Shown one piece after another: positions 16,950-16,999 of a stretch of DNA of 64,000 nt. The DNA is from a virus. Its lineage: Duplodnaviria > Heunggongvirae > Uroviricota > Caudoviricetes. The translations under genes were made by a program, and so were the position numbers. How positions within the stretch are numbered: position 1 is the stretch's first letter; every line of letters starts with the position of its first letter. The DNA is taken from positions 20,134-84,133 of IMG/VR virus record IMGVR_UViG_3300020160_002689; one strand, given 5' to 3'. Below the pieces are notes generated by a model. The model was not told where the DNA came from. It searched no databases and saw only the letters and a program-made list of their open reading frames with translations.

Positions 16950-16965
16950 TTATAAATAAATAATT

Positions 16966-16989
16966 TTAATATATATAGTACAAAATAAG
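16966..16989. promoter_or_regulatory. divergent promoter region with TTAATATATATAGTACAAAATAAG motif
   Basis: Lies between the divergent genes 16949(-) and 17000(+); the motif is partly palindromic. Confidence 0.4.
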
Positions 16990-16999
16990 ATGTAAGTTT

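What the first reader, a model, noticed from the sequence alone, without database searches (positions are those of the whole stretch)
16950..16999. Recurring TTAATATATA(T)AGTACAAAATAA-like motif upstream of many genes on both strands: candidate phage-specific promoter
Closely related copies sit 10-35 nt upstream of start codons. Examples are 16966 (TTAATATATATAGTACAAAATAAG, serving divergent genes), 19908 (TTAATATATAAGATACAAAATAAT), 46894 (TTAATATATACTATAACAAAAATAAG), 50326, 7305 and 14731. Shorter TATATATAGATT-ATG versions precede 33081 and 38015, and a copy precedes both GIY-YIG genes. Because the phage encodes its own sigma factor (40608..41288), this could be its cognate promoter, analogous to the T4 late TATAAATA element.
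Basis: seen in the sequence. Interest (0 to 1): 0.55.

Follow-up and report, generated by a model that had tools for sequence, protein, structure and literature searches.

The report
Megaphage late-type promoter TTAATATATA
A ten-base AT-rich signal (TTAATATATA) sits just upstream of about 25 genes in this giant Bacteroidota phage; it is very probably a phage-specific promoter of the T4 "late" type, read by a T4-gp55-like sigma factor encoded elsewhere in the genome rather than by the sigma gene in this window.

Summary
TTAATATATA occurs 18 times against 2.7 expected. Every copy is non-coding and points at a start codon 4-26 nt away, or at a tRNA cluster. The core is avoided inside genes (AATATATA 2 observed, about 20 expected). 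It is kept upstream of orthologous genes in related 630-735 kb "Mahaphage" genomes while the flanks diverge.

The element stands alone, with no -35 box. An A-rich tract starts 5 nt downstream. Motif-to-ATG spacing has a hard floor at 4 nt, which implies many leaderless mRNAs.

The window's sigma (40608-41288) is a genuine ECF sigma. It fits a different, bipartite motif better: AACTT-N15/16-TATAA. That motif is conserved in front of the sigma's own gene and of a gp55-like late-sigma gene in relatives.

Close relatives encode that gp55 homologue (phrog_234). Related Bacteroidota jumbo phages use [A/T]ATAAATA in the same places.

My reading is a T4-type late promoter variant inside a three-tier promoter system: host TAnnTTTG, ECF-type bipartite, late TAATATATA. 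Promoter status is about 0.85 likely and the gp55 assignment about 0.55. This is a new variant of a known kind and of moderate interest.

The parts
631..640 (-). Class A motif TTAATATATA, 4 nt before the ATG of ORF 3-626 (leaderless-type spacing)
7309..7318 (+). Class A variant ATAATATATA, 5 nt before the ATG of 7324-7830. The LR745206 orthologue has TTTTATAAATA plus 4 nt instead
11299..11308 (-). Class A motif, 19 nt before homing endonuclease 10656-11279 and directly after a tRNA
12744..12753 (-). Class A motif, 17 nt before homing endonuclease 12079-12726 (paralogous copy of the 11299 site)
13637..13646 (-). Class A motif about 120 nt upstream of the tRNA cluster that starts at 13516. It lies inside the spacer of a class C match (13628-13652)
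14682..14691 (-). Class A motif upstream of 14250-14660, followed by a host-type TATATTTG box
14720..14729 (+). Class A motif, 26 nt before the ATG of 14756-16102
16966..16975 (+).
19908..19917 (+). Class A motif, 26 nt before 19944-22619. It heads the block 19944-27449, whose ORFs 22621-25638 and 25674-27449 match virion-structural and tail-spike PHROGs (19944-22619 has no family match)
25640..25649 (+). Class A variant ATAATATATA, 24 nt before virion structural gene 25674-27449
29132..29141 (-). Class A motif, 21 nt before HTH/HNH endonuclease 28442-29110
29508..29517 (-). Class A motif, 5 nt before the ATG of a small unannotated ORF
30912..30921 (-). Class A motif, 18 nt before HNH endonuclease 30465-30893. 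The motif is kept in the LR745206 orthologue
31205..31214 (-). Class A motif, 8 nt before the ATG of a small ORF
34683..34692 (+). Class A motif, 4 nt before the ATG of 34697-36313. The LR745206 orthologue (30% identity) keeps the exact motif at 6 nt
37999..38008 (+). Class A motif, 6 nt before the ATG of 38015-38236
46894..46903 (+). Class A motif, 26 nt before 46930-47097. It heads the + strand block up to the methyltransferase gene 47892-49058
50327..50336 (+). Class A motif, 21 nt before the structural-region operon 50358-60064. The exact motif and spacing are kept in LR745206 and LR756502. LR756504 and LR756501 have TTTTTATATATA
60213..60222 (-). Class A motif just after a terminator-like hairpin and 4 nt before the ATG of a small ORF
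63172..63181 (-). Class A motif, 16 nt before HNH-type endonuclease 62556-63155
18858..18867 (-). Class A variant TTTATATATA, 4 nt before the ATG of 18389-18853
33067..33076 (+). Class A variant TTTATATATA, 4 nt before the ATG of 33081-33257
37541..37550 (-). Class A variant TTTATATATA, 19 nt before LAGLIDADG-type endonuclease 36652-37521
40608..41288 (-). Context, not the motif. ECF-type sigma factor gene (Sigma70_r2 + r4_2); the true start is probably the ATG at 41213
41290..41315 (-). Context. Class C bipartite element AACTT-N16-TATAA in front of the ECF sigma gene, with a TTTATATATA block (41303-41312) in its spacer. The spacing is conserved in 15 relatives
39077..39102 (-). Context. Class C element before the thioredoxin-like gene 38733-39056. 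Both boxes are kept and the spacer has diverged in LR745206

Best explanation
TTAATATATA (consensus TTT-T[A/T]ATATATA) is a stand-alone, -10-type promoter used by this Mahaphage-clade megaphage of Bacteroidota. It is a lineage-specific variant of the T4 late promoter TATAAATA.

Inferred mechanism. Host core RNA polymerase is loaded with a small gp55-like 'late' sigma. That sigma is encoded outside this window; it is a 121-aa ORF in the closest complete relatives. The holoenzyme melts the AT-rich box without needing a -35 element. It starts transcription about 5 nt downstream, at the first A of an A-rich tract.

Where the box lies 4-6 nt from the ATG, the transcript is leaderless. Elsewhere the leader is about 15-22 nt and A-rich, which suits Shine-Dalgarno-less translation in Bacteroidota.

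The element drives the structural-region blocks 19944-27449 (two ORFs with virion-structural PHROG matches) and 50358-60064, free-standing homing endonucleases, small ORFs and a tRNA cluster, on both strands.

It is one of three promoter classes in the window:
- host sigma-A type, TAnnTTTG;
- a bipartite AACTT-N15/16-TATAA class, best matched to the window's ECF sigma, which precedes both sigma genes;
- this late class.

Shown: enrichment, placement, orientation, avoidance in genes, conservation in relatives, absence of a -35 box, and presence of a gp55 homologue in relatives. Inferred: promoter activity, start-site position, the identity of the sigma, and late timing.
For: Counts and placement in the window:
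- 18 observed against 2.67 expected, all non-coding and co-oriented with a downstream gene.
- The motif is avoided in CDS (z about -4) while control AT-rich 8-mers are not.
- Avoidance is reciprocal. Lak-A1 avoids AATAAATA (1 against 25.8 expected) but not AATATATA (36 against 27). The window does the opposite.

Conservation in relatives:
- The motif and its spacing are kept upstream of orthologues of 50358, 34697 and 30465 in LR745206, LR756502, LR756504 and LR756501, while the flanks diverge.
- Unbiased 8-mer enrichment upstream of ORFs puts AATATATA or TAATATAT among the top four 8-mers in the window and in every locus from the five related megaphage genomes; it ranks first in the window, LR745206b and LR756504.

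Architecture:
- No position from -45 to -4 is conserved, in 18 window sites or in 81 sites across seven loci.
- The A fraction rises from about 0.5 to 0.76-0.79 at nt +5 to +7 after the box.
- Motif-to-ATG spacing is bimodal, with a floor at 4 nt (12 sites) and a second mode at 19-26 nt.

The T4 paradigm. An 8-bp TATA box about one helical turn upstream of the start, no -35 box, an AT-rich downstream region, and transcripts of either polarity (PMC2988020, PMC7892883).

The gp55-like sigma:
- pT24 BPT24_171, MA9V1_140, the LR745206 121-aa ORF and the LR756504 134-aa ORF all match phrog_234, 'late sigma transcription factor'.
- Homologues occur in Lak phages, LR756500, LR756502 and LR745206.
- The protein is 88-100% conserved in the 80 best of 272 matching IMG/VR contigs.
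- It lies on the same contigs as the ECF sigma.
- pT24 shows no match to the window's ECF sigma at E<=1e-3. It nevertheless has [A/T]ATAAATA before its structural genes, including the orthologue of 50358.

The ECF sigma has a better-fitting alternative target, class C (PMC1540707).
Against: - No transcript data exist. The promoter status and the start site are inferred.
- The gp55-like gene is not in this window. It is only shown for relatives.
- The consensus differs from TATAAATA at two positions.
- The regulon is not purely 'late'. It includes endonucleases, small ORFs, tRNAs and a methyltransferase block.
- The ECF sigma gene itself carries a class A-like ATATATA block in its promoter spacer in every relative. 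That would also fit autoregulation of an ECF sigma through class A.
- phiEco32 gp36, a sigma-family protein with sigma2- and sigma4-like domains, reads a very similar box, tAATGTATAtA, 6-8 nt upstream of the start (PMC4281155, PMC12276001). The sequence alone therefore does not exclude the ECF sigma.
- gp33 and sliding-clamp partners were not searched for.
Confidence: 0.55

Rival explanations
1. TTAATATATA is the cognate promoter of the ECF-type sigma encoded at 40608-41288. The sigma would use it as a single extended -10-like element, as phiEco32 gp36 does, and would autoregulate through the copy in front of its own gene.
For: - The sigma gene is real.
- A T[A/T]ATATATA or ATATATA block is present upstream of this sigma gene in the window and in all 15 relatives examined.
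- The phiEco32 gp36 promoter tAATGTATAtA is an 8/9 match to TAATATATA and lies 6-8 nt upstream of the start (PMC4281155; AATGTA centred at -11.5, PMC12276001).
- The motif and the sigma co-occur in LR745206, LR756502, LR756504 and LR756501.
Against: - The sigma is a canonical ECF sigma (SigW, AlgU, RpoE). This family reads bipartite promoters with an AAC -35 box (PMC1540707).
- Class A has no -35 partner.
- Upstream of the sigma gene, the AACTT and TATAA boxes keep fixed 15-16 nt spacing, while the ATATATA block floats by up to 7 nt.
- No PDB chain labelled gp36 or phiEco32 appeared among matches at E<=1.
- Lak phages have a 31%-identical sigma homologue but use AATAAATA.
- pT24 shows no match to this sigma at E<=1e-3, yet has the same kind of box at orthologous genes.
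- Class C enrichment tracks closeness of the ECF orthologue.
Confidence: 0.23
2. The element is not a promoter. It would be an RNA-level or protein-binding signal: an AU-rich translation enhancer for SD-less Bacteroidota ribosomes, an RNase processing site, or the operator of a phage DNA-binding protein (as T4 DsbA binds AT-rich sites at late promoters).
For: - It always lies close to start codons, at 4-26 nt.
- Bacteroidota translation depends on A/U-rich unstructured leaders (PMC6847099).
- No transcript data are available.
Against: - Spacing to the ATG is bimodal, not fixed.
- One copy precedes a tRNA cluster with no ORF.
- An exact 9-10-mer is conserved across phages whose orthologous proteins are only 30-76% identical, and it is strongly avoided on both strands of coding DNA. 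That fits a DNA signal read on either strand.
- It often follows terminator-like hairpins.
- The host-type TAnnTTTG boxes show the same 4-6 nt and 16-18 nt spacings.
Confidence: 0.08
3. The element is the promoter of a phage-encoded RNA polymerase (as in phiKZ, AR9 or crAss-like phages), with the start site inside or at the edge of the conserved box.
For: - Short AT-rich single-block promoters are typical of such polymerases (AR9 and phiKZ papers listed).
- Several large window ORFs have no family match.
Against: - Comparative genomics places the Lak/PTm1 group among jumbo phages without their own RNAP but with sigma factors and gp33 (PMC7824862).
- No RNAP domain was found in any window ORF tested.
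- Two sigma-family genes are present in the lineage.
Confidence: 0.04

Closest known systems
Bacteriophage T4 late promoters (TATAAATA; gp55 sigma with gp33 and the gp45 clamp)
   Same: - A single 8-9 bp AT-only box in the -10 region, no -35 element, and AT/A-rich sequence downstream.
- Sites occur on both strands and lie in front of structural genes and free-standing homing endonucleases.
- The lineage encodes a gp55 homologue (phrog_234).
   Different: - The consensus is T[A/T]ATATATA preceded by a T-run, not TATAAATA. TATAAATA itself is neither enriched upstream of genes nor avoided in genes here.
- The host is Bacteroidota.
- Nearly half the sites sit 4-9 nt from the ATG, which implies leaderless mRNAs.
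- Dependence on gp33 and the clamp was not tested.
[A/T]ATAAATA boxes of Bacteroidota jumbo phages (Tenacibaculum phage pT24, Prevotella Lak phages), seen here, not published as far as I could find
   Same: - The same position upstream of structural genes, after terminators.
- In pT24 the box precedes the orthologue of window gene 50358.
- The same gp55-like sigma family is present.
- Lak-A1 shows the same avoidance inside genes.
   Different: There is one A-to-T change in the core (AATAAATA against AATATATA). The two lineages avoid their own box and not the other's.
phiEco32 gp36-dependent middle/late promoters (tAATGTATAtA)
   Same: A nearly identical box (an 8/9 match to TAATATATA), 6-8 nt upstream of the start, read by host core RNAP with a phage sigma-family protein.
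   Different: - gp36 is not detectably related to the window's ECF sigma.
- gp36 also needs -35-region contacts (PMC12276001).
- It belongs to an enterobacterial podovirus.
Group IV (ECF) sigma promoters, GGAACTT-N16-(-10)
   Same: This is what the window's sigma should read. The AACTT(TT)-N15/16-TATAA class found here matches the AAC-plus-T-tract -35 rule and the self-promoter habit of ECF sigmas.
   Different: That is a separate motif from the finding. TTAATATATA has neither the AAC box nor a bipartite layout.

Membership tests
T4-type late promoter (gp55-dependent) | Single conserved AT-rich box of about 8 bp, as the only conserved element | tested here: met
   Information content is confined to T-run + T[A/T]ATATATA in 18 window sites and in 81 sites from 7 loci
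T4-type late promoter (gp55-dependent) | No conserved -35 element | tested here: met
   All positions from -45 to -4 have IC < 0.25 bit
T4-type late promoter (gp55-dependent) | Box lies about one helical turn upstream of the transcription start | not testable with these tools
   Indirect only. The A-tract begins at nt +5 after the box, and motif-to-ATG spacing has a floor of 4 nt. There are no 5'-end data
T4-type late promoter (gp55-dependent) | Genome encodes a gp55-family sigma | tested here: inconclusive
   None in the 64-kb window. Present in the closest complete relatives, LR745206.1 and LR756502.1, and in 272 IMG/VR contigs (phrog_234, E 1.9e-7). The rest of this genome was not available
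T4-type late promoter (gp55-dependent) | Consensus TATAAATA | tested here: not met
   The consensus is TAATATATA. TATAAATA is not enriched upstream of genes (2/7/31 sense-upstream / other non-coding / coding) and is not avoided in CDS
T4-type late promoter (gp55-dependent) | Precedes late (virion) genes; co-activators gp33 and the sliding clamp are present | tested here: inconclusive
   Structural genes 22621-27449 and the 50358 operon are served, but so are endonucleases, tRNAs and small ORFs. gp33 and the clamp were not searched for; a gp33 orthologue is reported for this phage group in PMC7824862
ECF (group IV) sigma promoter | Bipartite layout with an AAC-containing -35 box and a -10 box 15-17 nt apart | tested here: not met
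   Class A has no upstream partner. The separate class C motif does meet this feature
Bacteroidota sigma-A promoter | -7 box TAnnTTTG (positions -12 to -5) | tested here: not met
   TTAATATATA lacks TTTG. TAnnTTTG boxes occur separately in front of other, mostly minus-strand, genes (PMC9723704, PMC7366714)

The most novel reading that the evidence does not exclude
This uncultivated megaphage clade runs a three-step sigma cascade on host RNA polymerase: host sigma-A (TAnnTTTG), then a phage ECF sigma (AACTT-N16-TATAA, which switches on itself and the gp55-like gene), then a gp55-like sigma (TTAATATATA). A large share (about 40%) of its late messages would be leaderless, roughly ten times the leaderless share reported for Bacteroidota hosts. 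Under this reading the late box has co-evolved with gp55 from AATAAATA (Lak, pT24) to AATATATA, giving a natural specificity switch in a minimal sigma factor.
Probability: 0.3. Interest if true: 0.6.

Novelty: new variant of a known kind. Interest (0 to 1): 0.42.

Why it matters
These are the largest known phage genomes, none is cultivated, and almost nothing is known about how they time gene expression.

- A defined late box, plus a candidate ECF-type middle box and host-type early boxes, lets one sort hundreds of unannotated genes into temporal classes from sequence alone.
- The boxes improve start-codon calls, because many genes appear leaderless.
- They predict what each of the two phage sigma factors does.
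- The one-base difference between the Lak-type box (AATAAATA) and this clade's box (AATATATA), each avoided in its own genome's coding DNA, offers a natural test case for how a minimal gp55-type sigma reads DNA.

Tried and rejected
- Megablast of 8 kb of the window against the phage collection found nothing. Relatives were only found with protein queries.
- An exact 39-mer from the window is not in IMG/VR, so the source genome could not be recovered.
- A search for a -35 partner of class A found none.
- One-mismatch matches to the 10-mer over the whole window are only weakly enriched (77 against 57.6). The signal lies in the exact and near-exact non-coding copies.
- T4 gp55 was too distant as a direct query. 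tblastn reached no Bacteroidota phage in the rows shown. phmmer gave only E = 0.08-0.24 hits. Those hits were then confirmed with PHROGs and used as a bridge.
- Canonical TATAAATA as a second late class in the window was rejected.
- No PDB chain labelled gp36 or phiEco32 appeared among matches to the window sigma at E<=1; gp36 itself was not fetched and compared.
- Rfam found only tRNAs.
- 38733's 'TTAATATAAA', first counted as a class A variant, was re-assigned to class C because AAACTT and TATAAA are the parts conserved in LR745206.

Full report
**What the window is.** The window is 28% GC and carries 21 tRNA genes. Megablast finds no phage match at the DNA level, but protein searches do. 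The sigma ORF and the large structural-region ORF 50358-51851 match uncultured 630-735 kb phage genomes. These are LR745206.1 (69% and 76% identity), LR756502.1, LR756504.1 and LR756501/3, then more distantly the Lak megaphages, and for the structural ORF Tenacibaculum, Chryseobacterium and 'Sphingomonas' PAU jumbo phages. [quoted passage not shown] Iyer et al. place Lak and PTm1 in a jumbo-phage group with a T4-like core. That group has no RNA polymerase of its own. It has phage sigma factors of a minimal and a fuller type, plus a gp33 orthologue (PMC7824862).

- TTAATATATA occurs 18 times against 2.67+-1.69 in shuffles.
- Every copy is outside credible genes and points at an ATG 4-26 nt downstream. 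The exception is 13637(-), which heads a tRNA cluster. Two copies that fell in my first greedy ORF set lie in dubious TTG-start ORFs, and each has its own small ATG ORF 5-8 nt downstream.
- The 9-mer TAATATATA is 20/20 non-coding.
In 53 kb of confident CDS, AATATATA occurs twice against 18-21 expected from codon-level shuffles, and ATATATA 15 times against 50-57. AATAAATA, TATAAATA and AAATATAA are at expectation.
Only a T-run, T[A/T]ATATATA and downstream A-richness are conserved.

**Conservation elsewhere.**
- Upstream of orthologues of 50358, the exact TTTTAATATATA lies 21-22 nt from the ATG in the window, LR745206 and LR756502. LR756504 and LR756501 have TTTTTATATATA. The surrounding sequence is unalignable.
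- The orthologue of 34697 is only 30% identical as protein, yet it keeps the exact box at 6 nt instead of 4 nt. The orthologue of 30465 also keeps it.
- An unbiased count of 8-mers in the non-coding stretch upstream of ORFs puts AATATATA or TAATATAT among the top four 8-mers in the window, LR745206, LR756502, LR756504, LR756501 and LR756500. It ranks first in the window, LR745206b and LR756504. In Lak-A1 and pT24 the top words are AATAAATA or ATAAATAA.
- Avoidance is reciprocal. The window and its near relatives deplete AATATATA in genes (z -2 to -3.9) but not AATAAATA. Lak-A1 depletes AATAAATA (1 against 25.8, z -4.6) but not AATATATA (36 against 27).

Each lineage therefore purges its own box from coding DNA. 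That is what one expects of a signal that recruits polymerase wherever it occurs.

**Anatomy.**
- Across 81 non-coding sites in seven loci, no position from -45 to -4 is conserved. This is not a bipartite promoter.
- For strict TAATATATA sites whose ATG is at least 10 nt away (n=33), the A fraction jumps from about 0.5 at nt +1 to +4 to 0.76-0.79 at +5 to +7.
- Distances from box to first ATG are bimodal: 12 sites at 4 nt, then 8, 5, 4, 4 and 2 sites at 5-9 nt. There is almost nothing from 10 to 18 nt, and a broad mode at 19-26 nt. Essentially nothing lies below 4 nt.
- The simplest reading is a start site about 5 nt after the box. At the floor, the A of the ATG is +1.
- The host sigma-A -7 box TAnnTTTG occupies -12 to -5 (PMC9723704). 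Here it shows the same habit: TATATTTGtaaaATG at 19895, and 5-6 nt in LR745206. That supports the leaderless interpretation.
- Leaderless mRNAs are only 3.7-5.5% in Bacteroides and Flavobacterium (PMC7366714, PMC9723704). Here 28 of 61 strict sites are within 10 nt of an ATG.

**What is served.**
- The block 19944-27449, whose ORFs 22621-25638 and 25674-27449 match virion-structural and tail-spike PHROGs.
- The 50358-60064 operon. Its homologue in pT24 lies between head-completion and tail-collar genes.
- Six free-standing homing endonucleases: 10656, 12079, 28442, 30465, 36652 and 62556.
- Several small ORFs, a methyltransferase block and a tRNA cluster.
- Sites lie on both strands, 7 on plus and 11 on minus.

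**Which sigma?** The window's sigma is a textbook ECF protein. It has Sigma70_r2 + r4_2 domains, and its best PDB matches are SigW, AlgU, SigH and RpoE. Group IV sigmas recognise a -35 box built from a G region, an AAC motif and a T tract (GGAACTT for sigma-E), about 16 nt from a variable -10 box (PMC1540707).

While looking for a gp55 homologue I found exactly such a motif.
- In 36 distinct relatives, the gp55-like gene is preceded by a terminator and then AAACTT-N15-TATAAC.
- The ECF sigma gene is preceded by AACTT-N15/16-TATAA in the window and 15 relatives. The spacing is fixed, while an ATATATA block drifts by up to 7 nt inside the spacer.
- In the window this 'class C' pattern occurs 12 times against 3.3+-1.8 (0 of 100 shuffles reach 12). 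Nine of the 12 are at gene fronts.
- At the thioredoxin-like gene 38733, both boxes are kept in LR745206 while the spacer has diverged.
- Class C is enriched in LR756502 and LR756504, and weakly in LR745206 (sigma 42-69% identical). It is not enriched in LR756501, LR756500, Lak-A1, pT24 or MA9V-1.

The ECF sigma therefore has a better-fitting regulon than TTAATATATA.

**The gp55 lead.**
- T4 gp55 gave only marginal phmmer hits to two syntenic small ORFs, in pT24 and MA9V-1.
- PHROGs confirmed both as phrog_234, 'late sigma transcription factor' (E 5e-7 and 4e-6).
- Using MA9V1_140 as a bridge, tblastn found homologues in all Lak phages, LR756504, LR756500, LR745206.1 (189154-189423) and LR756502.1.
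- The LR745206 ORF (121 aa) and the LR756504 ORF (134 aa) hit phrog_234 directly.
- The protein is 88-100% identical in the 80 best of 272 matching IMG/VR contigs. That is far more conserved than the ECF sigma, which is 59-96% identical.
- Three long contigs carry both sigmas.
- pT24 shows no match to the ECF sigma at E<=1e-3. It has [A/T]ATAAATA boxes after terminators in front of its structural genes, including the orthologue of 50358, and TAnnTTTG boxes in front of replication genes.
- T4 late promoters are an 8-bp TATA box with no -35 element, an AT-rich downstream segment, and either polarity (PMC2988020).

On architecture, position, gene content and phylogenetic continuity (TATAAATA, then [A/T]ATAAATA, then TAATATATA), the finding fits this class best.

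**Caveats.**
- There are no transcript data.
- The gp55-like gene is shown only in relatives.
- The ECF sigma gene carries an ATATATA block in its own promoter.
- phiEco32 shows that a sigma-family protein with sigma2- and sigma4-like domains can read tAATGTATAtA 6-8 nt upstream of the start (PMC4281155, PMC12276001).

I therefore rate 'promoter' at about 0.85, 'gp55-type late promoter' at about 0.55, and 'ECF sigma promoter' at about 0.23.

**Novelty.** I found no paper describing promoters of Mahaphage or Lak genomes. The kind of element is well known. The sequence variant, its reciprocal avoidance pattern, the likely leaderless usage and the accompanying ECF-type class are new details. I classify it as a new variant of a known kind, of moderate interest.

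Noticed in passing
window 41290-41315(-), 39077-39102(-), 38011-38035(-), 28245-28269(-), 13628-13652(-), 31249-31273(-), 63222-63246(-), 47841-47866(+), 4903-4928(+); L011-L094 upstream of the gp55-like gene: A third, bipartite promoter-like class, AACTT(TT)-N15/16-TATAA, occurs 12 times against 3.3 expected. Its spacing is conserved in front of both phage sigma genes in dozens of relatives. It matches the ECF -35 rule (AAC plus T-tract) and suggests a sigma cascade with ECF autoregulation.
   Followed up: partly
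window e.g. 2234-2241(-), 18371-18378(-), 19895-19902(-), 34191-34198(-), 46823-46830(-), 50035-50042(-): Host-type Bacteroidota sigma-A -7 boxes (TATATTTG, TATCTTTG, TACATTTG) lie 4-23 nt before minus-strand genes such as the helicase and ligase-operon genes. This supports a Bacteroidota host and an early class. The degenerate pattern itself is only about 2-fold enriched in non-coding DNA.
   Followed up: partly
window 51800-51860 (ORFs 50358-51851 and 52295-53557): The two ORFs are one gene (phrog_29329; a single 1076-aa protein in pT24; continuous in LR745206 and LR756502). It is broken by a one-base difference in an A-run: A5 here against A6 in LR756502 at ...CTAAAAA(A)GATAGTAAA. This could be a homopolymer sequencing error, a real frameshift, or slippage.
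   Followed up: partly
window 40608-41288(-): The listed TTG start of the sigma ORF is probably wrong. Relatives align from about residue 13-30, and an ATG at 41213 gives a 201-aa ECF-sized protein. The resulting leader of about 70 nt contains repeated CAATCAAAA(A/G)CAAT units and a block (AAGCAATTGAC.GCAAGTCAA) shared with the closer relatives.
   Followed up: no
window 11468-11569(-), 31598-31722(-), 11730-11801(-); genes 31785-32816, 9508-10335, 4087-4875, 33759-34169: Two over-long tRNA matches (102 and 125 nt) may contain introns, and one tRNA has an unresolved anticodon. They sit among genes for an RtcB-like tRNA ligase, a tRNA-His guanylyltransferase, a nucleotidyltransferase and a tRNA amidotransferase-like protein. 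Together these form a tRNA repair and maturation set.
   Followed up: no
window about 10336-10420 (upstream of 9508-10335); L002 about 24280-24364: The leader of the tRNA-His guanylyltransferase gene (…AACTATCATTTTCCTTTGTCAAAAGGTGAG…AAATTTCAAAGGAATTTGAAAAAAAAGG) is unusually well conserved with LR745206 compared with other intergenic regions. It contains two short inverted repeats and may be a regulatory RNA or an operator.
   Followed up: no
window 10656-11279, 12079-12726, 28442-29110, 30465-30893, 36652-37521, 62556-63155: Six free-standing homing-endonuclease genes lie within 64 kb: phrog_314 (x2), HNH (x3) and LAGLIDADG-like. Most sit next to tRNAs, and each has its own TTAATATATA-type box. 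Mobile genes in this phage appear to carry or acquire the late promoter.
   Followed up: partly
L011 2998-3363 (LR745206.1), L012, L013, L014: The gp55-like proteins end in a conserved short tail (…GIHSL, …GLHSL, …GMYNI, …NIHSF). It sits where T4 gp55 carries its hydrophobic clamp-binding epitope, so it is a possible clamp-binding motif.
   Followed up: no
L002 about 32640-32661 (orthologue of window 7324-7830): Where the window has ATAATATATA plus 5 nt plus ATG, LR745206 has TTTTATAAATA plus 4 nt plus ATG. This is the canonical T4 box at the same leaderless spacing, which hints that both variants are accepted by the same factor.
   Followed up: no
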